Shown here: positions 4,173-40,372 of the stretch, in pieces | How the letters are laid out: every line of letters starts with the position of its first letter | Position numbering within the stretch: the stretch's first letter is position 1 | Source of the DNA: a virus | Taxonomy: Duplodnaviria > Caudoviricetes | Virus record (IMG/VR): IMGVR_UViG_3300020577_006613 | Coordinates: 36,329 to 100,328 of that record | Reading direction: 5' to 3' (one strand) | DNA: 64,000 nucleotides | Position numbers and translations under genes: made by a program | The notes under the pieces: generated by a model | Seen by the model: the letters and a program-made list of their open reading frames with translations, nothing else | The model's database searches: none | What the model was told of the DNA's origin: nothing

Positions 4173-4664
4173 AATTTGCCCGCTTAGCTCAGTTGGATAG
4201 AGCAGATGATTTCTAATCATCAGGTCAGGGGTTCGAATCCCTTAGCGGGCGCTTTGGATAGAAAAAGGATTTCTAAGCGTTTCTTTGTATTCATCTCTAT
4301 GGAGGTGGATTATGAAGAAATGCACAAGGTGCCAGTTAGAAAAGAAAGATTCAGAGTTCTACGAAAAAAGACCAGACAGAAAACAATCGCTTTGTAAGCC
4401 TTGTTTCAATGACTATTGTGTTGAAAGATGGATTCAACGAAAAAAAGACGCTGTTGCATATAAGGGTGGAAAATGCAAAATTTGCGGCTACAACAAGAAC
4501 TACGCGGCTCTTGAATTTCATCATCGAGATTCATCTACGAAAGATTTCGAATGGGTAAAACTTAGGCTCTACAAATGGGATAGAGTTCTTGAAGAACTGG
4601 ATAAATGCGATTTGCTTTGCAGTAACTGCCATGTTGAATTTCATCATCCACAACAGTCTATAAG
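4173..4664 (+). mobile_element. HNH homing cassette carrying a replacement tRNA-Arg, inserted in a tRNA-Arg gene
   Basis: Flanked by complementary halves of a different tRNA; contains intact tRNA plus HNH gene. Confidence 0.75.
4178..4251 (+). tRNA. tRNA-Arg(UCU)
   Basis: GCCCGCT/AGCGGGC acceptor, GATGA-TTTCTAA-TCATC anticodon arm, GGTTCGAATCC. Confidence 0.95.
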
Positions 4665-4901: not shown

Positions 4902-5192
4902 ATGGACACACAAGACTTTGCTCGTTTTATGCTTCGCCCTATTGAGTGGGCCAAAACTCAGTACGCAGAGGCTTTTTGCCTCTTCGGTTTGATGGTTTTT
5001 ATCGGCGTACTGTGGGGAACAATGTTCCTGGCTTTCGGTCTGCCGATTGTCTTTTGGATTCTTGCTGGTATAGGCTTTGTTGGACTGATTTTGTTCCTCG
5101 TAACTCTTGTTCTCTTCGCTATGGAAGAGAAGCGAAAGGAACGAGAAGTTCTTGAACGCAGAAAGAAGAACGATGCATCTAAGCGAACTTGA
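4902..5192 (+). CDS. membrane protein
   Basis: ATG 4902 (MDTQDF); long hydrophobic core. Confidence 0.65.
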   Translation: MDTQDFARFMLRPIEWAKTQYAEAFCLFGLMVFIGVLWGTMFLAFGLPIVFWILAGIGFVGLILFLVTLVLFAMEEKRKEREVLERRKKNDASKRT

Positions 5193-6636
5193 ACAGGTAA
5201 GAAAGGCGCGTCTCGATAAGATTCGAGAGCTTAATGTTGATCCGTATGGATGCGCCATTCAGGGTGTTGAAAAGATCGCAAGCCTTGTGGACAATTTTAG
5301 AGTTGGCGAGCCTCTTGCTCCCAATCCTGAAAGCCTTTTCTATTCAACTCCTCGCAGAGCGCAGGGTCGCATTGTTCTCCGCAGAGACAATGGTGGCCTA
5401 ATCTGGTTCAAGATCAGAGATGACTCTGGCGAGATTCAGGTTGCTTTTAGCAAGAAGTCTGCAAGCGAACCAGAAAACTTTGCTCTTGCAAAGCTTACCG
5501 ATCTTGGCGATATCATCGCCGTTGACGGCCCTATTCGCCGTACTCAAACCGGCGAAATCACTATTTGGGCAAGCAGGATTTATCTTGCATGCAAGAGCCT
5601 TACGCATCCTCCCGATAAGGTAGAAGGATTGCAAGATGTAGAGATTAGGTATCGCCAACGATACCTTGATATGGCCTTTAACAGCGACTTTACTCGCCGT
5701 TTGCAGGACAGATCAAGAATCATTTCTCTCTTGCGCAAGGCCTTTGAGAGCCGCAGATACATTGAAGTTGAAACTCCCATGCTGCACCCCATTGCTGGTG
5801 GTGCAGCGGCGCGGCCATTTGCAACGCATCTCAATGCTCTTGATATCCCATTGTTTATGAGAATCGCTCCTGAACTCTATCTCAAGAGATTGATTGTCGG
5901 CGGCATGTCAAGGGTTTTCGAGATCAACCGTAACTTCAGAAATGAAGGCGTTGACGCAACGCATAATCCTGAGTTTACTGCGCTCGAAGCCTACGGAATC
6001 AACGAGACTGCTCAAAGCCTTATGATGATGGTTGAGGAAATCATTAAGGAAGTTGTTTTCTCCATTGACAATACTCCTCATGACCACCAGGGTATTTTCA
6101 AGTTCGGAGAGCATCTGGTTGATTTCAACCAGCCTTTTAGAGTTGTTTCTTTCAAGGAACTCTTCCAAAGAGGCGTTAGCAGAGACATTCTCCAAGAAAC
6201 TGACTTTATCAAGGCTAATAAGCTTTTCGAAGAGTTTTGTGAGCCTTTGATTGATCCGAATGTTCCAACATTCGTTTATGGCTATCCATCAGCCATTTCG
6301 CCTTTGACAAAGACGATTGCAGGAGCGGAAGTTCTTTCTCAGCGAGCAGACCTTTTCATTGGCGGCATGGAAATCGGAACCATCTATACGGAACAGAACG
6401 ATCCGCAGGTTCAGTTTGATGTCTTCAATCAACAGCTTTCTGATGACGAAGAATCAACTCATCGCACAATGGATACCGACTTTGTTGAAGCGTTGAAGGT
6501 TGGTATGCCTCCAACTGGCGGGTTGGGTATCGGGGTTGACCGACTTGTTATGCTTTTGACTGGACAGACCAGCGTAAGAGATGTCATTGCCTTCCCGTTC
6601 ATGCGACCGCTTGAAGTTCCGCAAAATCAAGGCTAA
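5173..6636 (+). CDS. lysS: lysyl-tRNA synthetase, class II
   Basis: OB anticodon domain, YRQRYLD, GGAAARPF, RIAPELYLKRL, FRNEG, HNPEFT, GMPPTGGLGIGVDRL. Confidence 0.97.
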   Translation: MHLSELEQVRKARLDKIRELNVDPYGCAIQGVEKIASLVDNFRVGEPLAPNPESLFYSTPRRAQGRIVLRRDNGGLIWFKIRDDSGEIQVAFSKKSASEPENFALAKLTDLGDIIAVDGPIRRTQTGEITIWASRIYLACKSLTHPPDKVEGLQDVEIRYRQRYLDMAFNSDFTRRLQDRSRIISLLRKAFESRRYIEVETPMLHPIAGGAAARPFATHLNALDIPLFMRIAPELYLKRLIVGGMSRVFEINRNFRNEGVDATHNPEFTALEAYGINETAQSLMMMVEEIIKEVVFSIDNTPHDHQGIFKFGEHLVDFNQPFRVVSFKELFQRGVSRDILQETDFIKANKLFEEFCEPLIDPNVPTFVYGYPSAISPLTKTIAGAEVLSQRADLFIGGMEIGTIYTEQNDPQVQFDVFNQQLSDDEESTHRTMDTDFVEALKVGMPPTGGLGIGVDRLVMLLTGQTSVRDVIAFPFMRPLEVPQNQG

Positions 6637-6686: not shown

Positions 6687-7697
6687 ATGAGCAGCACTAT
6701 TGTTTCAACTCGCAGAATTGATCAGGTTTCTTCGCACCCTAATGCTGAGAAGCTTGAACTTGCCATCGTTGGTGGGTGGCAGTGCTGCGTACAAAAGGGT
6801 AAGTACAAGTCTGGTGACTTGATTACCTACATCCCGCCCGATTCGGTTCTTCCTGTTGCCTTGTCTGACTCTCTCGGAGTCACTAAGTTTCTAAGCAACG
6901 GTCGTATCATCCCTATCCGTCTGCGCAATGAAGCGTCTTTCGGGTTGGTTATCGATCCCGTTGGCAACGAAGGCGACAACGTTGCTGATCAGCTTGGTAT
7001 TACCAAGTATCAACCTCCTGTTGACCCGAACGACAAGGAAGCAGAGGCAAGCAACCCCTTCTTTACTACTTATACCGACATTGAGAATCTTCGCAACTTC
7101 ACTGATGTCTTTCAGGATGGAGAAGAAGTTGTAGTTACCGAGAAGATTCATGGCAAGAACTCTCGTCTTGGGTACATTCTCAATGATGATGGAGTCTGGC
7201 AGCGACTTGCTGGTGGTCGTACTGTTCAGAGAAAGAACACTCCGGGATCTGCGCATTGGTATCCCTGGTCTTTGCCTCAGATGAACCTTCTTGCTGGGGC
7301 TATTCTTGCCGATCCAAAGGTTGCTCGCCAGATTGTTATGTTTGGCGAAATCTTTGGCAATCAGAAGAAAATGAAGTACGGTCTTCCTGGCGTACTTGGT
7401 TATCGCATGTTTGATCTGTTTACTGATGGTTCCTACTGGAACTACGATAACATGCATGACCTTGCGACTCAGTGCGGAGTTGAAACCGTTCCCGTTCTTT
7501 ACCGTGGTCCATACTCTTTGGCTAAGATCGTTGAGCTTAGCAAAGGCAAGTCAACTATTCCTGGCGCTGATCATATTCGTGAAGGCGTGGTTGTTCGTCC
7601 AGTTGTTGAACGATTGAATCCCAAGGTTGGTCGGGTTATTTTGAAGTACGTTTCCGACGACTATCTTTGCGGCGACTTCGACGCTTCTGGCGAGTAA
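6687..7697 (+). CDS. ATP-dependent RNA ligase with N-terminal tRNA-binding OB fold (DRB0094-type)
   Basis: HPNAEKLE N-domain; motif I TEKIHG; FGEIFG; FD; REGVVV; ILKYVS. Confidence 0.9.
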   Translation: MSSTIVSTRRIDQVSSHPNAEKLELAIVGGWQCCVQKGKYKSGDLITYIPPDSVLPVALSDSLGVTKFLSNGRIIPIRLRNEASFGLVIDPVGNEGDNVADQLGITKYQPPVDPNDKEAEASNPFFTTYTDIENLRNFTDVFQDGEEVVVTEKIHGKNSRLGYILNDDGVWQRLAGGRTVQRKNTPGSAHWYPWSLPQMNLLAGAILADPKVARQIVMFGEIFGNQKKMKYGLPGVLGYRMFDLFTDGSYWNYDNMHDLATQCGVETVPVLYRGPYSLAKIVELSKGKSTIPGADHIREGVVVRPVVERLNPKVGRVILKYVSDDYLCGDFDASGE

Positions 7698-14820: not shown

Positions 14821-15281
14821 TTACTGGTTCTAATCCATTCAAAGTTGTCAAAACTGGTTGGCATAAGTGGTTCTGTGAAGGACCATACCAGAGCGGTAAG
14901 CAGTGGGACACAGAAGACGAAGCGCTTGAAGAAGCCGCTTTACTCAATTCGGTCTACAACATTGGATATTTTGCTAACGTAGATCAGGCAAGGCTTGCTC
15001 GGCTTGAGGACAACGCTGCGCATGCTTACAGATGCGCTCAAGAATATGTTCCTGACTATCCTTGGCCTGATAAGCCTGATATGTCATGTCAGGCTTCTAC
15101 TGCTGTTTGGGCTTGCGGAGAATCATACAAGGGGGTCTCTGCTGCCTGCCAGGATTGGCAAGACCTGTTTGAACACCTTGCGCCAGAAGCCTACAAAGCA
15201 CTTTTTGAGAGGATAAAGGCTGACACCAAAGCCTATGATGCTCTGCTTCAAGAGATCAAGGATAAAAAGGCAAAGGGATGA
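14817..15281 (+). CDS. hypothetical protein
   Basis: ATGA-coupled on both sides. Confidence 0.7.
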   Translation: MITGSNPFKVVKTGWHKWFCEGPYQSGKQWDTEDEALEEAALLNSVYNIGYFANVDQARLARLEDNAAHAYRCAQEYVPDYPWPDKPDMSCQASTAVWACGESYKGVSAACQDWQDLFEHLAPEAYKALFERIKADTKAYDALLQEIKDKKAKG

Positions 15282-16273
15282 TCAAACGAGGACTCTGCTG
15301 CATTCATATGGGCCTTCAAGCGAGAGGCATTCGCTTTCAAACAATGACTTGGAAGCAGTTTTCTTCGCGCCCAAGAAAAGAATCTATCGAGATACTTGCC
15401 AAGCGGTATGAGAACAACCTGCAAGTTATCCATTCAATCCTTCGTCTATGCGCTGTTCCTGATTGGAACTACAGAGTAAGCAGTGACATCTTTCCTCTTA
15501 TGACTCATCCTGAGTCTAAGATTGTTTGGGATGAACTGCCCAACGTCGAAACTCTTAATCAGCTTTTCAGAATCTGCGCAGAAGAGGCCTTTTTCAATAG
15601 CACTCGCCTCTCTTGCCATCCTGACCAATTCAATGTTCTTGCAAGCGAGAACGATAAGGCTGTTGAGCAAACCATCACAGAGTTGAACCATCATGGCTGG
15701 TTCATGAGTAAGCTTGGCCTTGATCCTTCTACTTGCCAAGACCCTATTCTTAGGAAACTTCTTGGCGACACTAAGGGACTGCATAATCTTGGCTACGTTG
15801 CCCCTATAAACATCCATCTGAATTGCTCGAAGGGCGACCCCAAAGATATCACCAAGCGGTTTAAGGCCAATCTAGACCGCCTAAACGACAATGCCAAGAA
15901 GCGTCTTGTTGTTGAGGTTGAGGATAAGGGTATTTGGACCGCCAAAATGCTTGTTGATCATATTCATGAAGCTACAGGCGTTCCTGTAACTTTTGATTAT
16001 CTGCATCACAAGTGCAATCCAGGCGGGTTGACGGAAGAAGAGGCCTTCAAACTTTGCGCTGAGACTTGGGGTAGCGCAACTCCATTGTTCCATTTTGCTG
16101 AAACGTTACCAGGCCAAAACAACCCCAGAAAGCATGCTGACTTTCCTACTTTCGTACCTAATGACTACGGGTACAATATCGACCTGGATTACGAGTTCAA
16201 AATGAAGGACCAAGCGCTTCAAAAAGCACAAAAACTTGAAGAAGAACTTGAAAGCAAATCGGTAGGTGTCTAA
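15278..16273 (+). CDS. uvsE: UV damage endonuclease
   Basis: YRVSSDIFP, RLSCHPDQFNVL, EL.HH, INIH, FDYLHH, RKHAD, EFKMKD. Confidence 0.93.
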   Translation: MIKRGLCCIHMGLQARGIRFQTMTWKQFSSRPRKESIEILAKRYENNLQVIHSILRLCAVPDWNYRVSSDIFPLMTHPESKIVWDELPNVETLNQLFRICAEEAFFNSTRLSCHPDQFNVLASENDKAVEQTITELNHHGWFMSKLGLDPSTCQDPILRKLLGDTKGLHNLGYVAPINIHLNCSKGDPKDITKRFKANLDRLNDNAKKRLVVEVEDKGIWTAKMLVDHIHEATGVPVTFDYLHHKCNPGGLTEEEAFKLCAETWGSATPLFHFAETLPGQNNPRKHADFPTFVPNDYGYNIDLDYEFKMKDQALQKAQKLEEELESKSVGV

Positions 16274-16365
16274 GATTTTGCGTGGAGGCATTCAAGTTTT
16301 TTCCGATGGATGCCGATACAGTTTGTACTGAAGAACGCCTACCAAAGAACTTCTCAGTAAAATAG

Positions 16366-16482
16366 TAGATGTCGGAACTGGTCGAAGGACAGGACGGTTA
16401 ACTTTACCGCTCGCCGTAAGGCGATTTCAAAGTGCAGCCGCAAGGCAACCCGTTCGCCATAACATACCTTTTCCGCTTCTTT
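16366..16482 (+). ncRNA. Y RNA-like ncRNA A (Ro-binding stem plus 3-way junction with two GNRA hairpins)
   Basis: GGT-CGAA-GG / CC-ATAACAT-ACC; TCGCC-GTAA-GGCGA; GCC-GCAA-GGC; upstream of Ro60. Confidence 0.7.
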
Positions 16483-16520
16483 TGACCTGGCAACAGCTTA
16501 GCAGCTATTCGTCAAGGTTT

Positions 16521-16588
16521 GGTCATCGAGTCGAAGAATGAAGGTTAACGGCTAAAAAAGCCTTTGTTCACCAACATATTCGATGCCA
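16521..16588 (+). ncRNA. Y RNA-like ncRNA B (minimal)
   Basis: CATCGAGT-CGAA-GAATGAAGG / CCTTTGTTC-ACCAACAT-ATTCGATG. Confidence 0.7.
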
Positions 16589-16649
16589 TTTTGTAGCCTC
16601 TCGGTTCTTGAAGGAAACTTCAGGTCAACCGTATTGAAAACTGAATAAT

Positions 16650-16771
16650 GCGTCTGTAGTGTAATGGTAGCACACTAAAACATCCTGACCACTAACTTAC
16701 CGAACAGGTCGACCGGAAAGGGTTATCTCTATTACCAAGAGGTAGTTTGGGTTCGAATCCCAACGGGCGCT
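16650..16771 (+). ncRNA. tRNA-like Y RNA C (YrlA-type, permuted Ro module inserted in tRNA-Gly-like cloverleaf)
   Basis: GCGTCTG/CGGGCGC-T acceptor, D arm GTGT-AATGGTA-GCAC, T arm TTGGG-TTCGAAT-CCCAA, ~50-nt insert CC-ACTAACTT-ACC-GAACA-GGT-CGACC-GG. Confidence 0.8.
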
Positions 16772-16777
16772 TTGAAA

Positions 16778-17338
16778 ATGTTGATTGAATCGCTCATACC
16801 GATGCAGAACACTCTGCGAGAAGCGGAGCAGCTACCTGAAATGGTAGATTTTGTTCGCAGCGGCGGAGTCTTTACTGCTGAAACTCTTTCAGTCTTTGCG
16901 ACAAAGAAGAGAGAAAATGCAGTTAGTCTCTTTAAGCTCAACCCCATAAAGGTTGTCAGGTTTGAAGACGGAGCGATGTACCTTCACGATGGCCTTCATC
17001 GTACAACAGCTATATGGATGGCTGGAAGAAGGGTCTTGGATTCGAGAGAGTTTGTGTTAGAAGGTTGGGAGTATAAGGATTACCTGGAAATCAATCTTGA
17101 TCAAAAATGGTATACGCCATTTGATCCGAGAAAAGAAGTTCGCATCAATGACTTCCTCTCGTATAAGAGATTGGTGGAAGAGTTCATAACCAAGGAACCG
17201 AAGCCGACAAATGAAGAAATTCGGCTTTACATACTTGACCATTATGAGGTACAGTCGTATACTGAACCTCGTTCTGTGAAATCAGTAGCAGAAGTGGCAA
17301 GTCGGCATACTATGGCAATACCTGCTGTAGTCGAATAA
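16778..17338 (+). CDS. ParB/Srx-like N-terminal domain protein
   Basis: PIKV..FEDG.MYLHDGLHR..A motif. Confidence 0.55.
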   Translation: MLIESLIPMQNTLREAEQLPEMVDFVRSGGVFTAETLSVFATKKRENAVSLFKLNPIKVVRFEDGAMYLHDGLHRTTAIWMAGRRVLDSREFVLEGWEYKDYLEINLDQKWYTPFDPRKEVRINDFLSYKRLVEEFITKEPKPTNEEIRLYILDHYEVQSYTEPRSVKSVAEVASRHTMAIPAVVE

Positions 17339-17349
17339 GGAGTTGGGAA

Positions 17350-19047
17350 ATGGCAAATTACGGTAAGCACGCAGCGTCCATCAGCAAGAAGACCCCAAAG
17401 GCTACGCCTCAGACTGTGCAGACCCCTGGTACTGTGCAGAACAACGCAGGCGGCTATGTCTATGAGATTGATAAGTGGGAGCGCCTTGATCGTTTCCTGA
17501 TCTTGGGTACGGATGGCGCAACCTACTACTGCTCAGAGCGCAAGATGTCGCTCGATAACTCCAAGAACGTCCTTGAGTGCATCAAGGAGGACGGTATTCG
17601 TACCGTTAACCGCATCGTTGAGATCAGCGATGATGGTCGCGCTCCAAAGAATGATCCTGCTCTCTTTGCGCTTGCGCTCTGCGCTTCGCATGGTGATGAT
17701 GACACTCGTAAGCTCGCGCTGAACCTTCTCCCGAAGGTTGCTCGTATCGGTACTCACTTGTTCCAGTTCTCGCACTTCATTGACGGTCAGCGTGGTTGGG
17801 GTTCCGGCCTCCGCAACGCTATCGCCAACTGGTACAACGGAATGAAGCCTGAGCGCCTTGCTCTTCAGGTTGTTAAGTATCCGCAGCGTACTGCTGAGGA
17901 GGGTAACGCGAAGTCTTCCTGGTCGCACGATGACTTGCTCCGCAAGTCTCACGTTCGAGGCGATGAGCTTCACAACCTGATCTATCAGTACGTCACGAAG
18001 GAGGGTAAGCTTCCTGACCGTGTTCCTGAGCCTCTTGCTATCCTTGAGGGCGCAAGCCGCATGAAGTCTGCAAAGACTGAGGGCGATGTTGTTTCCTTGA
18101 TCGAGAAGTATGAGCTTCCGCATGAGCTTGTTCCGAAGGAGTTCGGCAACAGCGAAGCCGTATGGCGCGCTCTCCTGCCGCACATGCCTATCACGGCAAC
18201 TATGCGCACGTTGAACCGTCTTACGTCTTACGGCGTCCTCAAGCCGCTTTCGAGCGATTTGAAGATGGTTGTTGAGCGTTTGACCAACGTTGAGAATATC
18301 AAGAAGGGCCGCGTTCACCCGCTGGCAGTTCTCGGTGCGCTCAAGACGTACTCCAACGGTCGTGGTGTCAAGGGTAGTTTGACCTGGTCTCCTTTGTCGC
18401 AGATTACTGATGCACTTGACGATATGCTCTACCTCGCGTTCGATAACATCGAGCCGACTGGTAAGAACATCTTGATCGGTCTTGACGTTTCTGGTTCTAT
18501 GGAGAGCGGAAACATTGGTGGTCTTGACTTCGTTACGCCTCGCGAGGCATCTGCTGTCATGGCGATGGTTACGGCGCGTAGCGAGAAGAACTACCATATC
18601 ATCGGATTCACTGCCGGTGGCTGGACCGCAAGTGGTCAGCACTCTCGTTCAAGTTGGGGTGGCGGTGGCTACGGAGTTACCGACATTCACATCAGCCCTC
18701 GCGAGCGTCTGGATGCTGTCTGCAAGAAGATCGGCGCTCTCCCGATGGGAGGTACGGACTGTGCATTGCCTGTTCTCTACGCAATGGAGAAGGGTCTGCA
18801 TGTTGACGCCTTCATTACCTACACCGACAACGAGACCTGGGCAGGCGCTATCAAGCCGCATGAGGCTCTGGTACAGTACCGTAATCAGCGCAACGCTCAG
18901 GCGAAGCTGATTGCAGTTGGTATGACTGCAACCGAGTACAGCATTGCTGACTCGAACGATGCTGGTTCCATGAACTTCGTTGGGTTCGATTCGTCGGCTC
19001 CGGCGCTCATGGCAGACTTCATTCGTAAGCCGCTTCGCTCTCGCTAA
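17350..19047 (+). CDS. rsr: Ro60/Rsr (TROVE + vWA) RNA-binding protein
   Basis: QNNAGGYV, RFLILGTDG.TYY, ARIGTHLFQF, GRVHP, vWA LDVSGSM, GGTDCALP, TDNETW, GFDS. Confidence 0.96.
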   Translation: MANYGKHAASISKKTPKATPQTVQTPGTVQNNAGGYVYEIDKWERLDRFLILGTDGATYYCSERKMSLDNSKNVLECIKEDGIRTVNRIVEISDDGRAPKNDPALFALALCASHGDDDTRKLALNLLPKVARIGTHLFQFSHFIDGQRGWGSGLRNAIANWYNGMKPERLALQVVKYPQRTAEEGNAKSSWSHDDLLRKSHVRGDELHNLIYQYVTKEGKLPDRVPEPLAILEGASRMKSAKTEGDVVSLIEKYELPHELVPKEFGNSEAVWRALLPHMPITATMRTLNRLTSYGVLKPLSSDLKMVVERLTNVENIKKGRVHPLAVLGALKTYSNGRGVKGSLTWSPLSQITDALDDMLYLAFDNIEPTGKNILIGLDVSGSMESGNIGGLDFVTPREASAVMAMVTARSEKNYHIIGFTAGGWTASGQHSRSSWGGGGYGVTDIHISPRERLDAVCKKIGALPMGGTDCALPVLYAMEKGLHVDAFITYTDNETWAGAIKPHEALVQYRNQRNAQAKLIAVGMTATEYSIADSNDAGSMNFVGFDSSAPALMADFIRKPLRSR

Positions 19048-19074: not shown

Positions 19075-19106
19075 AGCCCCTTCGGTGTTCTACCGAGGGG
19101 GCTTTT
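19075..19106 (+). terminator. intrinsic terminator after rsr
   Basis: AGCCCCTTCGGT-GTTCT-ACCGAGGGGGCT-TTT. Confidence 0.8.
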
Positions 19107-23577: not shown

Positions 23578-23968
23578 CCTCGAAGAAATAGACGCTCTTA
23601 TCCATGAACGGATTTATGGACTAACTACCTATAAACAGGACGCAAGCGTTCGAGACTGGCAGGGGTTGATCCCTAAATACTCTTCAGATTTTTCACTTGC
23701 AATGTCAGTCGCTGAGAAAGTCGGCCTTTTCGACACTATAATGCTGGCGAAGGACCGAGAGAACTGGATCACGCTTGAAGCCTCAGTAAGTAGTTTGAAC
23801 GAAACCCAGTCTCAGAAGTTCTATTCTTCAGGTCTTGATATCAAGGCCAAAGCTTTCTCTTCTGGCTTTACCGCTGCTGAAGCAGTTGCAAGAGCCTGTT
23901 TGGTTCTGAAGGTAAAAGAAAATGAGCAATCCAGCAGGTCCGATCAACAGAGTCTTGGAGTCCTTTAG
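23552..23968 (+). CDS. phage ABA-sandwich-like protein
   Basis: PKYSSDFSLAM.VAEK...AEAVARACL. Confidence 0.6.
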   Translation: MRVYKERNNLEEIDALIHERIYGLTTYKQDASVRDWQGLIPKYSSDFSLAMSVAEKVGLFDTIMLAKDRENWITLEASVSSLNETQSQKFYSSGLDIKAKAFSSGFTAAEAVARACLVLKVKENEQSSRSDQQSLGVL

Positions 23969-24953
23969 AAGACTTGTTCCAGAAGACAAATCTGCTGTTA
24001 TCGCATGCTCAGGCGGGGCCGATTCAATGGCCCTGCTTTTTTGCGCGCAAAAGACTGGACGAACCCTTATTGCTGCTCATGTTCTTCACGACATGAGGCC
24101 TTACGATGAAGCATCAAAAGACAGGGATCTGGTTCAGTCATACTGCGAAAGTAACGCCATTCATTTCGTTGACAAGGTTGCAAAGCTAAGGTTTGGCGAA
24201 AAAATCCCAACAGAAGAAGCATACGGATACGAAAGACAAAGACTCTTATGGGGAGTGGCTGATGAGTACAACGGATATGTTGTAACCGCTCATCACGCAG
24301 ATGACCAGCTTGAAACAATGCTCATGAAGCTCTGTAGAGGTTCAGGTCTTCGTGGACTGTCGGGCATTTCAGAGACACACAACCACAACGACAACATTAC
24401 TGTTCGACCAATGCTCTCAATCTCCAAGGATGATGTATACGAGATTTGCAGACAGAACAATGTTCCGTTCAATGAAGATCAAACCAACAAAGATACCAAG
24501 TACACTCGAAACGCTATTCGACACAATGTGATTCCTGCTTTGAAGGCTCTGTTTCCTCATTGTTCAGAAAAGGCAAACGACGCTGCTGCTATCTTTTCAC
24601 AGGCGCAGGAACTTGCAAACGAAAGCCTCTACGATCTCAAGTTGCACCAGAAGACTAACATTGTTTATGATCCCGACTGGGGAGGTGGCGGTACTTGCGT
24701 AAGCCTTCCTATTGAGGCTTTGCAACTTGCCAACAACATTACTATCTATGAGTGGCTTAGAAGTTCTGTTGTCTATCTTGCAGGAGGTTTTGAATACGTT
24801 GCTCATGACAGCGTAAACAAGGAAATGGTTGACAAAGTAATCTTGGCTATTAGAAACAGGTCTAAGAGAACCTTTGATTGGCCTCTCAATATCAAAGTTA
24901 GCGTTTCCAAGACTGAAGTAACAGTGATGATTGTTAAGAAGATTCTGCCATGA
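23922..24953 (+). CDS. tilS: tRNA(Ile)-lysidine synthetase
   Basis: SGGADSMAL, TAHHADDQLET.LM.L.RGSGL.GL, RPML, RNAIRH. Confidence 0.93.
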   Translation: MSNPAGPINRVLESFRRLVPEDKSAVIACSGGADSMALLFCAQKTGRTLIAAHVLHDMRPYDEASKDRDLVQSYCESNAIHFVDKVAKLRFGEKIPTEEAYGYERQRLLWGVADEYNGYVVTAHHADDQLETMLMKLCRGSGLRGLSGISETHNHNDNITVRPMLSISKDDVYEICRQNNVPFNEDQTNKDTKYTRNAIRHNVIPALKALFPHCSEKANDAAAIFSQAQELANESLYDLKLHQKTNIVYDPDWGGGGTCVSLPIEALQLANNITIYEWLRSSVVYLAGGFEYVAHDSVNKEMVDKVILAIRNRSKRTFDWPLNIKVSVSKTEVTVMIVKKILP

Positions 24954-32282: not shown

Positions 32283-32528
32283 ATGCTTGGGTTCCGAAAA
32301 TTCTTTAGCAGAGCAATGGCAACTGTATCTAGCCTAAGAGTCTACATTCCCAAAAATCCACGATATAAGGTCAAAAGAGCATGGTGTTCCATAACAGACA
32401 CAGCTTCTGGCGATGAGTCTGACATAGAACTTGCGATTGAGATTGAAGAGAAAATGAGCAGAATAAAAATCTGTAGAATAACAACTAGCTCCAACCAGAT
32501 CGTTGTTAGCCTTAAGGTGGAAAAATGA
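32283..32528 (+). CDS. hypothetical protein
   Basis: Coupled to next gene. Confidence 0.55.
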   Translation: MLGFRKFFSRAMATVSSLRVYIPKNPRYKVKRAWCSITDTASGDESDIELAIEIEEKMSRIKICRITTSSNQIVVSLKVEK

Positions 32529-33460
32529 GCAACATCATCCTCATTGTTGGCTATCAAGCGTCTGGTAAATCAACGCTCTCTCAAACACTTATCAATCAAG
32601 GCTACATTCATATCAACAGAGACAAAGAGGGTGGTTCTATTGCCGGTCTTGTTCCTCTCGTTGAGGCTGCTATCAAAAGCGGCAAGAATGTAGTCCTTGA
32701 CAACACCTTCCCTACCAAAGCTGGCAGGAAGATGTTCATTGACCTTGCTCATAAGCACAAGGCAAGCATTACTTGCTATTGGCTCAATACGAGCATTGAA
32801 GATGCGCAGTTCAACGCTTGCTCTCGACTCGTAAAGATGTTTGGCTCATTGCCGAGCAATAACGATATCAAGAAGTCTAAACATCCCAATGTCTTTCCTG
32901 CTGCTGCGCTCTTTGGATACCGCAAAGAATTTGAGAAACCAACGACGCAGGAAGGTTTTGATAAGGTTGAGGTTATTGAATTCGCAAGAGTCATAGACCC
33001 GACCTATAACAAGAAGGCCTTGCTTCTTGACTTTGACGGTACTTTGAGAGACACGAAAAGCGGCGCAAAATTTCCAACAGACCCGAACGACATTTTCATC
33101 CTTCCTGGCAGAAAAGAACTTCTTCAAGCCAAGAAGAAAGAGGGTTACATACTGCTTGGAGTAAGCAATCAAAGCGGAGTAGAAAAGGGCGATCTTACAA
33201 TGGAGCAGGCAAAAGCTTGCTTTGATAAGACAATCGAACTTCTTGGAGTTGATATTGATGTTTCGTTCTGTCCTCACAGAGTACCGCCCATTAGTTGCTA
33301 TTGTCGCAAACCGATGCCCGGACTTCCGGTTCAATTCATTGAAAAATACAAACTTAATCCATCTCTTTGCATTCTTGTAGGGGATATGACTACAGATAAA
33401 ACTTGTGCAGCAAGAGCAGGAATGCAATTTGTTTCTGCTGATGAATTTTTCAAAGGATAA
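32525..33460 (+). CDS. polynucleotide 5'-kinase/3'-phosphatase (PNKP)
   Basis: GYQASGKST, INRD, LDNT; HAD DFDGTL, SNQSG, CRKP.PG, VGD..TD. Confidence 0.9.
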   Translation: MSNIILIVGYQASGKSTLSQTLINQGYIHINRDKEGGSIAGLVPLVEAAIKSGKNVVLDNTFPTKAGRKMFIDLAHKHKASITCYWLNTSIEDAQFNACSRLVKMFGSLPSNNDIKKSKHPNVFPAAALFGYRKEFEKPTTQEGFDKVEVIEFARVIDPTYNKKALLLDFDGTLRDTKSGAKFPTDPNDIFILPGRKELLQAKKKEGYILLGVSNQSGVEKGDLTMEQAKACFDKTIELLGVDIDVSFCPHRVPPISCYCRKPMPGLPVQFIEKYKLNPSLCILVGDMTTDKTCAARAGMQFVSADEFFKG

Positions 33461-39100: not shown

Positions 39101-40372
39101 ATGGAAGCTGTAACCGAAAAGCTTGGTCCTGTTGTGATTCCCCCAGAAGAAACCGGAGGAGTCCCTGTCAAGTGCTGGACAAAGGATAAAGATCCTGAAA
39201 CCGGCAAGCCCATCCTGAATCTGGAAGCAGGCGCAATCCGCCAAGCTAGCGAGGCAGCTAGACTTCCTTGCGTTTTCAGGCACGTTGCCCTCATGCCTGA
39301 CGCTCATACGGGCTTTGGAGTACCTGTAGGTTCAGTGCTTCCTCTTGTTAACGCAATTTCCCCGAATGCCGTGGGCGTGGATATCGGGTGCGGAATGTGT
39401 GCATGGAACTCAGGAATTAAGGTTACGGACCTCGATGTTCGCAAGCTTATGACGGCTATTAAAGATGATGTTCCTGTTGGCGAAGGCAAGAATCGCACCA
39501 ATAGCGACCTTTGGCTTGGGCATAAGCGCATCGTTGACCATATTGCTGATGTCGAGAAAAAGGTTCAAGAGGCAAAAGAACTTTGCAAGACTCTTGATTA
39601 TCCTGAGTGGGGACGCGCAAGAATCCAGATTGGAACTCTTGGCGGCGGTAATCACTTCATTGAACTTCAAGAAGACGGCGAAGGCAACGCCTGGTTCATG
39701 CTTCATAGCGGTTCAAGAGGCCTTGGCGCTCAACTCGCAAAGAAGTTCCATCATCTTGCGGTTCAAACATGCAAGAAATACTACACTCGCCTTCCTAATG
39801 AAGAATTGGCATTCTTGCCTACTGACTCCGATGAAGGTCAGTGGTATATCGCAAGCCTTCTTGCTGCGCAAGACTATGCGCTCGCTAATCGCTTGTTGAT
39901 GATGATCTGTTGTCAGGAAGCAGTTAGAGAACAGCACCACCAGACAAATCCTCTCAAGGATATCATCAATATCCACCATAACTACGCGACCATCGAGAAC
40001 CATTTCGGTCAGAATGTTTGGATTCACCGCAAGGGAGCAACGCTCGCTCGCAAGACGACCGTTGGCATTATTCCTGGTTCCATGTGCAGCAAGAGCTATA
40101 TCGTAAAGGGCAAAGAAAACCCTGACAGCTTTAACTCATGCTCGCACGGAGCAGGTCGTCCTTACAGCAGAACCGAAGCGAGAAGGCGAGTCAAGGAAGG
40201 TATTGACCCTTCTCAAGCATCGCAGCTTGGTAATGTTGAGCTTTATGGCGTTCGTGAAGCTCACGACGAACTTGGCTCTGCATACAAGAACATTGATGTT
40301 GTTATGGACAATCAGAAAGACCTGGTTGCCATTCAAACAGAATTGAAGCCTGTTGCCGCTTTGAAGGGATAA
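39101..40372 (+). CDS. rtcB: RtcB RNA 3'-phosphate/cyclic phosphate ligase
   Basis: MPDAH.G.G, VGVDIGCG, GTLGGGNHF, HSGSRG, HHNY, HRKGAT, PGSM, SCSHGAGR, YKNI. Confidence 0.97.
   Translation: MEAVTEKLGPVVIPPEETGGVPVKCWTKDKDPETGKPILNLEAGAIRQASEAARLPCVFRHVALMPDAHTGFGVPVGSVLPLVNAISPNAVGVDIGCGMCAWNSGIKVTDLDVRKLMTAIKDDVPVGEGKNRTNSDLWLGHKRIVDHIADVEKKVQEAKELCKTLDYPEWGRARIQIGTLGGGNHFIELQEDGEGNAWFMLHSGSRGLGAQLAKKFHHLAVQTCKKYYTRLPNEELAFLPTDSDEGQWYIASLLAAQDYALANRLLMMICCQEAVREQHHQTNPLKDIINIHHNYATIENHFGQNVWIHRKGATLARKTTVGIIPGSMCSKSYIVKGKENPDSFNSCSHGAGRPYSRTEARRRVKEGIDPSQASQLGNVELYGVREAHDELGSAYKNIDVVMDNQKDLVAIQTELKPVAALKG

What the first reader, a model, noticed from the sequence alone, without database searches (positions are those of the whole stretch)
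16650..16771. tRNA-Gly-like cloverleaf with a Ro-binding hairpin inserted, retaining an anticodon-like arm
Seen: GCGTCTG-TA-GTGT AATGGTA GCAC-A-[~50-nt Ro hairpin]-ATCTC TATTACCAA GAGGT-AGT-TTGGG TTCGAAT CCCAA-CGGGCGC-T. Established: G1-C72, C2-G71, G3-C70, U73 and an xCC anticodon are tRNA-Gly identity elements. As I recall, described YrlA RNAs replace the anticodon arm with the Ro stem. Here a vestigial TT-ACC-AA arm persists beside the insert. Inference: an evolutionary intermediate between tRNA and Y RNA that might be CCA-added and glycylated, or act as a decoy for anticodon nucleases.
Basis: partly seen in the sequence, partly recalled or inferred. Interest (0 to 1): 0.8.

Follow-up and report, generated by a model that had tools for sequence, protein, structure and literature searches.

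The report
tRNA-shaped Y RNA beside phage Ro60
This 122-base gene of a giant phage encodes a small RNA with the full shape and end-to-end order of a tRNA, carrying the docking helix of the RNA-surveillance protein Ro60 as an extra arm; it belongs to a large, apparently undescribed family in phages and bacteria that is a circular rearrangement of the known YrlA RNAs.

Summary
Window 16650-16771(+) scores as a tRNA (Rfam RF00005, 40.3 bits) with a 53-nt insert, 579 nt upstream of an Rsr/Ro60 gene.

It is one of at least 150 related elements, found beside Rsr in 26 of 77 viral loci and 63 of 80 bacterial loci. Covariation supports every helix: 93-95% of cells are paired, against 37-52% in slid controls.

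The architecture is a complete cloverleaf. The 5-bp anticodon stem is interrupted between nt 28 and 29 by a linker, a closed Ro-type bulged helix (UUGCCC / GGGCCGA; UUACC / GGUCGA in the window) and UUAUC.

The small hairpin keeps an anticodon-loop signature with free middle triplets. Canonical phage YrlAs carry the same modules in circularly permuted order. A family profile matches them in two swapped pieces, and as one colinear hit after in-silico permutation.

The retained anticodon-like arm is therefore not what is new, because YrlA's "V" arm is the same thing. What is new is the native tRNA connectivity with a free acceptor end. CCA is encoded in register in 21 of 71 bacterial members, but not in the window.

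Glycylation, decoy action and Rsr binding are untested. I found no description of this in the literature held. The scan noted the same kind before on other DNA (e1-5465964) and on this genome (e1-5884922). I class it as a new variant of a known kind.

The parts
16650..16656 (+). Acceptor stem, 5' strand (GCGUCUG); pairs with 16764-16770
   Evidence: Rfam tRNA alignment. This helix is 100% paired in 30 viral relatives and 99.8% paired in 71 bacterial relatives, with compensatory changes at all 7 pairs.
16657..16674 (+). U8 A9, D arm (GUGU / AAUGGUA / GCAC) and A26
   Evidence: U8 and A14 are present in 100 of 101 family members. A15 pairs with U48 (16746), the Levitt pair, which covaries as G:C in 55 and A:U in 39 of 101.
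16675..16676 (+). nt 27-28 (CU), the proximal two pairs of the anticodon stem; partners are G 16742 and G 16741
   Evidence: Helix 3 of the family structure is 100% paired (viral set) and 92.9% paired (bacterial set), with four pair types.
16677..16682 (+). A-rich linker AAAACA (family consensus AAAAC). The same linker follows the D arm in canonical YrlA of L009 and L010
16683..16722 (+). Ro60-type hairpin. Basal helix UCCUGACC / GGAAAGGG (6 of 8 positions paired), internal loop ACUAA-C / CC, then U-U (16697-16698) paired with G-A (16711-16712), bulged C 16710, apical helix ACC (16699-16701) / GGU (16707-16709), and loop GAACA where the ends of a Y RNA would lie
   Evidence: Family helices 4 and 5 are 80-92% paired, with a near-invariant U-G pair next to the bulge. 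The family consensus UUGCCC...GGGCCGA fits the YrlA motif GNCGAAN0-1G (PMC4201824). The window's own version is weaker (GUCGAC, 3-bp apical helix). An alternative pairing, UGACC/GGUCG, is what the free-energy fold prefers.
16723..16727 (+). Conserved UUAUC joint between the Ro hairpin and the small hairpin
   Evidence: Nearly invariant in the family and in canonical YrlA.
16728..16742 (+). Anticodon-like arm: UCU (29-31), 7-nt loop AUUACCA, AGA (39-41), then GG (42-43) running on without a gap
   Evidence: Helix 6 is 89.5-93% paired with four pair types. The loop is 7 nt in 67 of 101 members. Among those, position 2 is U in 64 of 67 and position 6 is a purine in 57 of 67, and the middle positions show 34 different triplets.
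16743..16746 (+). Variable loop UAGU (4 nt); its last U is the partner of A15
16747..16763 (+). T arm UUGGG / UUCGAAU / CCCAA
16764..16771 (+). Acceptor stem 3' strand (CGGGCGC) and discriminator U. No CCA is encoded (UUGAAAAUG follows)
17350..19047 (+). rsr: Ro60 orthologue (565 aa), the presumed protein partner
   Evidence: Pfam TROVE 2.7e-31 and vWA_Ro60 1.1e-52.
16778..17338 (+). ParB/Srx-like ORF between the RNA and rsr, starting 7 nt after the RNA; probably co-transcribed
   Evidence: Weak Pfam ParBc_2 match, 0.0047. RNA-library contigs run across the RNA/ORF boundary.
16370..16492 (+). Upstream Y-like RNA 1 in the ordinary order (GGUCGAAGG ... GGUUAAC ... AACAU ... CUUUUGACC), ends approximate
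   Evidence: Sequence and fold. Not analysed comparatively.
16520..16590 (+). Upstream Y-like RNA 2 in the ordinary order (GAGUCGAAG ... GGUUAAC ... AACAU), ends approximate
   Evidence: Sequence and fold, z = -2.68. Conserved in L003 and L006.
19075..19103 (+). Intrinsic-terminator-like hairpin (13 bp plus a T run) closing the RNA-ParB-rsr unit

Best explanation
The element is a Y RNA of the YrlA lineage, that is, a partner RNA of the phage's Ro60/Rsr protein, built in the native connectivity of a tRNA.

Shown:
- It is a complete cloverleaf: 7-bp acceptor stem, D arm and T arm, with U8, A14 and the 15:48 tertiary pair.
- The 5' strand of its anticodon stem is interrupted between nt 28 and 29 by a linker, a closed Ro-type bulged helix and UUAUC.
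- It is homologous, module by module, to canonical YrlA, but circularly permuted.
- It belongs to a large family encoded beside rsr on the same strand.

Inferred:
- It is transcribed with the two upstream Y-like RNAs and the ParB-like/rsr mRNA.
- It is cut out by the host's tRNA-processing enzymes, RNase P at the 5' end and a 3' trimming activity.
- It receives CCA.
- It binds Rsr through the bulged helix, so that the L-shaped tRNA body serves as the module that brings Rsr together with tRNA-binding factors or with an exoribonuclease such as PNPase.
- Because this phage also encodes RtcB, an RNA ligase, Pnkp, an aminoacyl-tRNA synthetase and a TilS-like enzyme, the most likely setting is tRNA quality control or repair during infection, possibly against host defences that cut tRNA.
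For: - Rfam tRNA match at 40.3 bits with the insert.
- Rsr gene with TROVE and vWA_Ro60 domains 579 nt downstream on the same strand.
- Covariance models find 30 viral and 71 bacterial full-length relatives beside rsr. These are 93.2% and 95.5% paired, against 64-76% in shuffles (0 of 500 reach the observed value) and 37-52% when partners are slid. 33 and 30 of the 35 pairs carry double changes, and each of the seven helices is supported.
- The bacterial set shared no sequence with the seed.
- The Levitt pair covaries (G:C 55, A:U 39 of 101), and U8 and A14 are invariant.
- The Ro site consensus UUGCCC/GGGCCGA has the bulged C and the U-G pair, and matches GNCGAAN0-1G of YrlA (PMC4201824).
- A profile of the family hits canonical YrlAs of L009, L010 and L172 as two pieces in swapped order. 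After in-silico permutation it hits them as one colinear match of 51-67 bits.
- Census: this order occurs in 26 of 77 viral and 63 of 80 bacterial Rsr loci.
- Encoded CCA is enriched exactly in the tRNA register: 21 of 71, against 0-2 at other offsets.
- M. smegmatis YrlA is cut by RNase P and CCA-added (PMC4201824), which is a precedent.
- The window also encodes RtcB, RNA ligase, Pnkp, a class II synthetase and a TilS-like enzyme.
Against: - No binding, processing or expression datum exists for this RNA.
- The window's own Ro site is degenerate: GUCGAC instead of GNCGAA, a 3-bp apical helix and two mismatches in the basal helix. The free-energy fold prefers another pairing, and folding energy is not better than shuffles.
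- The closed helix is much shorter on its apical side than the terminal stem of known Y RNAs, so Rsr binding is an extrapolation.
- The window encodes no CCA, and no CCA-adding enzyme was found in the contig, which is only about 20% complete.
- The only RNA-library contigs run from the element into the ORF at depth 2-3. They show unprocessed transcript or carried-over DNA, not a mature small RNA.
- The well-kept anticodon-loop signature is not needed by this explanation.
Confidence: 0.78

Rival explanations
1. It is a working tRNA with an extra Ro-binding arm. It is aminoacylated (Gly-like acceptor in the window, G-1:C73 His-like in many relatives) and is used on the ribosome or by another aminoacyl-tRNA-dependent process, while Rsr rides on it or guards it.
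For: - The cloverleaf is complete, with the 5-bp anticodon stem preserved as 2 + 3 pairs and the 3' strand continuous.
- The 7-nt loop has U33 in 64 of 67 members and a purine at 37 in 57 of 67.
- CCA is encoded in register in 21 of 71 bacterial members.
- The window has G1-C72, C2-G71, G3-C70 and U73.
- 17 of 30 viral and 23 of 71 bacterial members have G-1:C73.
Against: - Anticodon triplets and discriminators do not make coherent identity sets. Ser- and Leu-type triplets occur without a long variable arm, and Cys, Ile and Asn triplets occur with C73. In the window UAC goes with U73 and C37. This rests and on identity rules recalled from E. coli work.
- About a third of members have no 7-nt loop, and some have no small hairpin at all.
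- Most members have an 8-bp acceptor stem.
- A 53-nt branch in the anticodon stem would have to be tolerated in the ribosomal A and P sites.
Confidence: 0.08
2. It is a bait. Its displayed anticodon loop is cut by host anticodon nucleases in place of real tRNAs, or it reports such cutting to Rsr and the phage's repair enzymes. This is a functional refinement of the main explanation rather than an alternative structure.
For: - The anticodon-loop shape is kept while the three middle bases vary freely: 34 triplets in 67 loops.
- Several elements with different loops occur per locus.
- The phage carries RtcB, RNA ligase and Pnkp.
- A Ro60-like protein of phage Bas63 counters the ppl defence system (10.1101/2024.10.10.617714).
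Against: - There is no direct evidence.
- The loop signature could be a relic, or could be kept for folding or for modification enzymes.
- Members without the loop exist.
- The defence countered by Bas63 gp130 is thought to act on DNA, not on tRNA.
Confidence: 0.07
3. It acts mainly in cis, as a tRNA-like punctuation mark. It makes RNase P and 3' processing enzymes separate the upstream Y RNAs from the ParB-like/rsr mRNA, and has no role of its own afterwards.
For: - It lies at the 3' end of the RNA array, 7 nt before the ORF.
- RNA-library contigs bridge the boundary between RNA and ORF.
- tRNA-like processing signals in operons are established biology.
Against: - This role would not need a conserved, covarying Ro-type helix or an anticodon-like hairpin.
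- In other loci the elements lie downstream of rsr, in tandem, or amid tRNA arrays.
Confidence: 0.05
4. The insert is an intervening sequence that is removed, giving an ordinary 69-nt tRNA.
For: Removing 16677-16727 would leave a regular cloverleaf with a 5-bp anticodon stem.
Against: - At 53 nt the insert is far too small for a group I intron, the only tRNA intron type established in bacteria.
- It sits in the stem between nt 28 and 29, not after nt 37.
- It carries its own conserved motifs and covarying helices, shared with YrlA, where the same modules are not excised.
- The RNA-library contig X15 spans 16602-16865 without a joint.
Confidence: 0.02

Closest known systems
YrlA (Y RNA-like A; Rfam RF02553; Chen et al. 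2014, PMC4201824; structure in Wang et al. 2018, 10.1101/312249)
   Same: - Encoded beside rsr on the same strand.
- Ro-type bulged helix with the GNCGAA-type 5' strand.
- UUAUC joint, and a small hairpin before the variable loop (the 'V' arm).
- T arm, acceptor-like stem, UA, D arm and an A-rich linker.
- tRNA tertiary nucleotides, including the covarying 15:48 pair.
- A family profile aligns canonical YrlAs over their full length once they are permuted.
   Different: The connectivity differs. In YrlA the ends lie in the Ro helix, the T arm precedes the D arm, and the acceptor-like stem is closed by a loop. Here the ends lie in the acceptor stem, the D arm precedes the T arm as in tRNA, and the Ro helix is closed by a loop. 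Rfam's YrlA model gives no hit here even at E = 10. Wang et al. state as a general feature that in YrlA the T arm lies 5' of the D arm.
[quoted passage not shown]
   Same: A Y RNA with a 7-bp acceptor stem that offers a free, CCA-ended acceptor end.
   Different: There the RNA becomes two pieces held together by pairing. Here one continuous chain has that end from the start.
Canonical tRNA (Rfam RF00005)
   Same: Full cloverleaf, scoring above the family threshold (40.3 against 29 bits). In relatives, CCA is encoded in register.
   Different: 122 nt long, with a 53-nt structured branch inside the anticodon stem. No coherent identity set. Not called by ARAGORN.
Metazoan Y RNAs and D. radiodurans Yrn1
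   Same: Both strands of the Ro helix can be recognised (CUUG(N)CC / GG(N)CCGA, bulged C, G-U and A-U pairs). Relatives such as L007 read GGACCGAAGU...GGGUUAUC and CUGCA..ACUUGUCC.
   Different: Those RNAs have their ends in the Ro helix and no complete tRNA body.
b7a-tRNA of Burroughs and Aravind 2016 (known to me only through 10.1101/312249)
   Same: A predicted tRNA-like RNA of RNA-repair loci, said to lie next to Rsr occasionally.
   Different: It is described as closely resembling an authentic tRNA and as the partner of Band-7 proteins. I could not read the paper, so overlap with this family cannot be excluded. No Band-7 gene lies next to the window's element.

Membership tests
YrlA (RF02553) | Encoded within a few kb of rsr, on the same strand | tested here: met
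   The element ends 579 nt before rsr (17350-19047), and both are on the + strand.
YrlA (RF02553) | Ro-binding helix with the 5'-strand motif GNCGAAN0-1G | tested here: inconclusive
   The window has GUCGAC-CG, 5 of 6 motif bases. The 79%-identical-Rsr relative L003 has GUCGAACG. The family consensus GGGCCGA(A) fits the motif.
YrlA (RF02553) | tRNA-like domain with D and T arms and tRNA tertiary nucleotides | tested here: met
   U8, A14, the GG of the D loop, the UUCGAAU T loop and the 15:48 covariation.
YrlA (RF02553) | Ends in the Ro helix, T arm 5' of the D arm, acceptor-like stem closed by a loop | tested here: not met
   The order here is acceptor 5' strand, D, Ro hairpin, small hairpin, T, acceptor 3' strand. 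There is no T arm upstream and no D arm downstream. The acceptor helix covaries across the whole element. The Rfam YrlA model gives no hit at E = 10.
YrlA (RF02553) | Bound by Rsr in vivo | not testable with these tools
   Needs immunoprecipitation or a gel-shift assay.
tRNA (RF00005) | Cloverleaf scoring above the family threshold | tested here: met
   40.3 bits against a gathering score of 29.
tRNA (RF00005) | Uninterrupted 5-bp anticodon stem with a 7-nt loop; length about 70-95 nt | tested here: not met
   122 nt long, with 53 nt inserted between nt 28 and 29. ARAGORN is silent.
tRNA (RF00005) | Anticodon and acceptor identity elements that agree | tested here: not met
   In the window the loop is AUUACCA. 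That gives UAC at positions 34-36 with C37, together with U73 and the G1 C2 G3 pairs. The Gly set lacks C35 and the Val set lacks A73. Across the family there is no agreement either. The identity rules are recalled from memory.
tRNA (RF00005) | Aminoacylation and use in translation | not testable with these tools
   Needs charging assays.
Intron-containing tRNA gene | Group I intron fold (more than 200 nt) or an insert after nt 37 with a bulge-helix-bulge motif | tested here: not met
   The insert is 53 nt and sits in the 5' strand of the stem. No Rfam intron family matches in the window. The bulge-helix-bulge motif was not searched for formally.

The most novel reading that the evidence does not exclude
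These elements are the ancestral form of the tRNA-like Y RNAs: tRNAs that acquired a Ro60-docking arm in the anticodon stem. Canonical YrlA then arose from tandem copies by permutation-through-duplication. The T half of one copy, the spacer and the D half of the next copy became the new RNA, and the two halves of neighbouring Ro hairpins became its terminal stem.

On this reading they still behave as tRNAs at the acceptor end. They are cut by RNase P, carry CCA and are possibly charged, for example by HisRS on the G-1:C73 members. They would so link Ro60 physically to synthetases, EF-Tu, the ribosome or anticodon nucleases.
Probability: 0.22. Interest if true: 0.85.

Novelty: new variant of a known kind. 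Interest (0 to 1): 0.66.

Why it matters
Y RNAs are the obligate partners of Ro60, from bacteria to humans. Their origin and the job of their second module are open questions. YrlA is known to mimic tRNA, but only in a back-to-front order. [quoted passage not shown]

A large family with the same modules in the true tRNA order supplies the missing form that this model needs. The family shows free acceptor ends, encoded CCA and tandem arrays with 6-7 nt spacers. It also makes the model testable by phylogeny.

The family suggests that much of the Ro60 world in Myxococcota, Chloroflexota, Armatimonadota, Verrucomicrobiota and jumbo phages uses partner RNAs that existing searches and Rfam miss, or discard as odd tRNAs.

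For phage biology, it ties a Ro60 particle to a genome full of tRNA-repair enzymes. That points to a role in the contest over tRNA between phages and host defences.

Tried and rejected
- ARAGORN finds only the two tRNA-Arg genes, not this element.
- Rfam at E up to 10 gives no YrlA or Y_RNA match in 16300-17000.
- Free-energy folding is not informative. The whole element has z = -1.23 and the insert z = +0.39, and the fold picks a pairing (UGACC/GGUCG) that the family does not support.
- MAFFT alignments of the insert were out of register by 1-2 columns. I therefore built a first model with the tRNA part only (R1), then a seed of 7 consistent sequences (R2).
- A parse as tandem canonical YrlAs is rejected. 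In L007 the acceptor 3' strand of one copy does not pair with the 5' strand of the next, whereas pairing within each copy is perfect and covaries.
- A pseudogene with a chance insert is rejected on conservation and covariation.
- Seven cultured phages with Ro genes were scanned: Gordonia BearBQ and Forza, Microbacterium Zooman, Streptomyces Evy and SparkleGoddess, Rhodococcus Trina, and Agrobacterium Atu_ph07. None gave a strong match in tRNA order. BearBQ has a canonical YrlA. Trina has a 209-nt 'tRNA-OTHER' pseudogene call upstream of Ro that I did not resolve.
- Public runs: only low-depth contigs (depth 2-3) from two metatranscriptome runs of one study, plus one run of uncertain kind, touch the element. 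They bridge into the ORF and show neither ends nor abundance.
- No CCA-adding enzyme (PF01743) was found in the 100-kb contig, which is about 20% complete.
- Neighbours of rsr in other loci are varied (RtcB, AAA ATPase, ParB-like, RecT, PcfJ), with no constant third partner.
- Sim and Wolin 2018, Sim et al. 2020 and Burroughs and Aravind 2016 are not held in the library, so a prior description there cannot be excluded.

Full report
**Observation**

Rfam's tRNA model matches it from end to end at 40.3 bits (gathering score 29), skipping 66 nt in the anticodon region. ARAGORN does not call it. Free-energy folding is unremarkable, with z = -1.23.

The window is part of a 100-kb IMG/VR contig, rated about 20% complete, so it comes from a jumbo phage. 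All genes around the element lie on the + strand:
- UvdE at 15278-16273.
- A 500-nt non-coding stretch that ends with the element.
- A ParB/Srx-like ORF at 16778-17338.
- A 565-aa Ro60/Rsr orthologue at 17350-19047, with TROVE 2.7e-31 and vWA_Ro60 1.1e-52.
- A strong terminator-like hairpin at 19075-19103.

**A family, not a one-off**

Relatives of the Rsr protein in IMG/VR carry elongated tRNA-like hits of 120-127 nt next to rsr. One contig (L007) has three in a row, separated by 6-7 nt.

I built two covariance models. The first (R1) carried only the tRNA helices. The second (R2) carried the full structure and came from seven consistent sequences.
- R2 finds 30 clear members in 22 viral loci.
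- R2 finds 71 members at E below 1e-11 in 47 bacterial Rsr loci, none of which was in the seed.

The bacterial carriers span Armatimonadota, Chloroflexota, Myxococcota, Verrucomicrobiota, Abditibacteria, Longimicrobia and others. They include the cultured Desulfonema magnum and Polyangium strains.

A profile-HMM census finds this kind in 26 of 77 viral and 63 of 80 bacterial Rsr loci, 153 elements in all. The canonical YrlA order was detected in only five of these loci. That census samples only the Rsr proteins closest to the window's own.

**Structure**

On the model-fitted alignments, 93.2% (viral set) and 95.5% (bacterial set) of cells form standard pairs.
- Column shuffles give 64.4% and 76.2%, and 0 of 500 shuffles reach the observed value.
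- Sliding the 3' partners by 1-3 columns gives 37-52%.
- 33 and 30 of the 35 pairs show changes on both sides.
- Each of the seven helices is supported.

These alignments lean towards the model. However, the slid controls, and a bacterial set independent of the seed, make the result robust.

The order of parts is as follows:
- Acceptor stem, 7 bp (8 bp in most relatives).
- U8 A9, the D arm, and N26.
- Two pairs, 27-28 with 42-43.
- An A-rich linker.
- A hairpin made of an 8-bp basal helix, an asymmetric internal loop, U-U paired with G-A, a bulged C, a 3-4 bp apical helix and a loop.
- UUAUC.
- A 3-bp stem with a 7-nt loop, whose 3' strand runs straight on into nt 42-43.
- A 4-5 nt variable loop, the T arm, the acceptor 3' strand and the discriminator.

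The canonical 5-bp anticodon stem is therefore intact as 2 + 3 pairs, and the Ro module is a branch between nt 28 and 29.

About a third of members differ. In these a full 5-bp stem encloses the Ro hairpin, and the small hairpin is reduced or missing.

Tertiary signals of the tRNA L shape are kept. U8 and A14 are present in 100 of 101 members. The Levitt pair 15:48 covaries as G:C in 55 and A:U in 39 of 101. The window has A15 with U48.

**The Ro site**

The family consensus is UUGCCC [loop] GGGCCGA. This gives helix GCCC/GGGC, a bulged C, then G-U and A-U pairs. That is the conserved Ro-binding helix of Y RNAs, and it contains the YrlA motif GNCGAAN0-1G (PMC4201824). Some relatives even read like vertebrate Y RNAs on both strands (CUGCA..ACUUGUCC and GGACCGAAGU..GGGUUAUC). 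This last comparison rests on my recall of the hY1 sequence.

The strands stand in the reverse order to a Y RNA, and a loop sits where the RNA's ends would be.

The window's copy is weaker: UUACC [GAACA] GGU-C-GA, followed by C instead of A, and two mismatches in the basal helix. Within its own clade the basal helix shows one compensatory change, C-G to U-A, between window/L003 and L006/L005 (by eye). The free-energy fold prefers UGACC/GGUCG. Binding of Rsr to this particular copy is therefore an inference.

**Relation to YrlA**

Canonical YrlAs of related phages match Rfam YrlA at E of about 5e-6, below the gathering score. These are L009, L010 and Gordonia phage BearBQ. They contain the same modules with the same local sequences:
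- The GNCG 5' strand.
- GGUUAUC.
- A 3-bp hairpin with a 7-nt loop (CCA[CUGUAAC]UGG).
- Two bases that pair with the two bases after N26.
- AGGUU, the T arm, a closed acceptor-like hairpin, UA, and the D arm.
- N26, UAAAA(A)C, and the 3' strand of the Ro helix.

A profile HMM of the 71 bacterial elements matches these RNAs in two pieces in swapped order. Profile positions 58-117 come first, then 4-55, at 36+16, 30+12 and 22+20 bits. When each RNA is cut in the acceptor loop and its ends are joined in silico, the match becomes one colinear hit over profile positions 4-117, at 66.9, 51.2 and 53.6 bits. The two kinds are therefore circular permutations of one another.

The distinctive point is the native tRNA connectivity. 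Wang et al. (10.1101/312249) describe T-before-D order as a general property of YrlA. They also cite the model that YrlA arose from dimeric tRNA transcripts.

**tRNA-like ends**

In the bacterial set, CCA starts one or two bases after the acceptor 3' strand in 21 of 71 members. At any other offset it appears in 0-2 members. These RNAs therefore evolved under the rules of tRNA 3' ends.

Most members have an extra -1:73 pair. G-1:C73 occurs in 17 of 30 viral and 23 of 71 bacterial members. The window has a plain 7-bp stem, with U-1 and U73 unpaired and no CCA.

**The anticodon-like loop**

The loop is exactly 7 nt in 67 of 101 members. Among those 67:
- Position 2 is U in 64.
- Position 6 is a purine in 57.
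- Position 7 is A in 53.
- The three middle positions are nearly random, with 34 different triplets.

This is the signature of an anticodon loop. However, the triplets do not agree with the discriminators or the variable-arm types, so a general decoding role is unlikely. That judgement uses identity rules from memory.

In the window the loop is AUUACCA: UAC at positions 34-36, C37, and U73. Its close relatives have AUAUCCC, CUAUCCA and CAUACCAA. The NCC in these loops is always one position out of register, which fits descent from a tRNA-Gly rather than present Gly identity.

**Mechanism**

The best-supported reading is a Ro60 partner RNA matured by the tRNA pathway.

Shown: homology to YrlA, linkage to rsr, the structure, and tRNA-type ends in relatives.

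Inferred: co-transcription from a promoter-like site at 16248-16276 with the two upstream Y-like RNAs and the ParB-like/rsr mRNA; excision by RNase P and 3' trimming; CCA addition; docking of Rsr on the bulged helix; and use of the L-shaped body to bring in tRNA-binding factors or PNPase.

Precedents:
- Rsr-Y RNA-PNPase complexes in D. radiodurans and Salmonella (PMC4201824).
- A Thermus phage Ro60 that recruits host PNPase (PMC12135203).
- A Ro60-like protein of phage Bas63 that counters the ppl defence (10.1101/2024.10.10.617714).

The window also encodes a class II aminoacyl-tRNA synthetase (5107-6636), an RNA ligase (6687-7697), a TilS-like enzyme (23922-24953), Pnkp (32525-33460) and RtcB (39101-40372). 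tRNA repair or quality control during infection is therefore the likely setting.

Contigs from RNA libraries cover 16602-16906 without a joint and at low depth. This shows at most an unprocessed transcript.

**Rivals**

The alternatives are listed with their tests under rival explanations:
- A chargeable, decoding tRNA with a Ro arm.
- A bait for anticodon nucleases.
- A mere processing signal.
- An excised insert.

None explains the conserved Ro helix together with the rsr linkage better than the Y RNA reading. The bait idea is compatible with that reading.

**Novelty**

Rfam 15 has no family for this order. The literature held describes only the permuted order. [quoted passage not shown]

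I could not read Sim and Wolin 2018, Sim et al. 2020 or Burroughs and Aravind 2016. The last of these describes a 'b7a-tRNA' said to lie occasionally beside Rsr.

Other notes of this scan reached the same reading on this genome (e1-5884922, e1-5884938) and on another virus (e1-5465964). I reached it independently before seeing them, and I tested it here.

Verdict: a real feature, and a new variant of a known kind.

Noticed in passing
window 16370-16492 and about 16520-16590: Two further Y-like RNAs lie upstream in the ordinary order (GGUCGAAGG or GAGUCGAAG, then GGUUAAC, then AACAU, then a closing strand). They have no tRNA body and resemble YrlB. The locus therefore encodes three candidate Rsr partners in a row.
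   Followed up: partly
window 5107-6636, 6687-7697, 23922-24953, 32525-33460, 39101-40372: The phage carries a tRNA-centred toolkit: a class II aminoacyl-tRNA synthetase (D/K/N type), an RNA ligase, a TilS-like PP-loop enzyme, a polynucleotide kinase-phosphatase and RtcB. It also carries two tRNA-Arg(UCU) genes at 740-814 and 4178-4252.
   Followed up: partly
L093, L130, L139, L170, L158, L136, L096 (bacterial Rsr loci): In many bacteria the rsr gene and its tRNA-shaped Y RNAs sit inside long arrays of ordinary-sized tRNA genes, 10-20 within 7 kb. This suggests a mobile or accessory tRNA island that includes Ro60.
   Followed up: no
L007 5853-6238 and 6250-6330: There are three tandem tRNA-shaped Y RNAs with 6-7 nt spacers downstream of rsr. 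A fourth piece follows that has the GAGCCGAAGUUGAAGGGUUAUC half-site but no tRNA body. Rfam's YrlA model weakly matches the junction of two copies (E = 0.0034).
   Followed up: partly
A8 and A9 members; e.g. L092 2442-2560, L101 2431-2552: Most relatives have an eighth acceptor pair, often G-1:C73, which is the hallmark of tRNA-His. In many bacterial members this pair is followed by A-CCA. Whether HisRS or RNase P reads this is unknown.
   Followed up: partly
L177 3098-3306 (Rhodococcus phage Trina, NC_042040.1 84277-84485): RefSeq annotates a 209-nt 'tRNA-OTHER' pseudogene directly upstream of the Ro gene, and a Band-7-like gene directly downstream. The RNA there matched my model only weakly and was not resolved.
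   Followed up: partly
L010 238-565: A viral contig with a canonical YrlA and rsr also encodes a bacterial-type RNase P RNA (252.7 bits) at the head of an array of more than 25 tRNA genes.
   Followed up: no
window 16778-17338: The ParB/Srx-like ORF is wedged between the RNA array and rsr. Another viral locus (L085) has a ParB_N/HTH_ParB gene upstream of its elements. This may be a recurrent partner.
   Followed up: no
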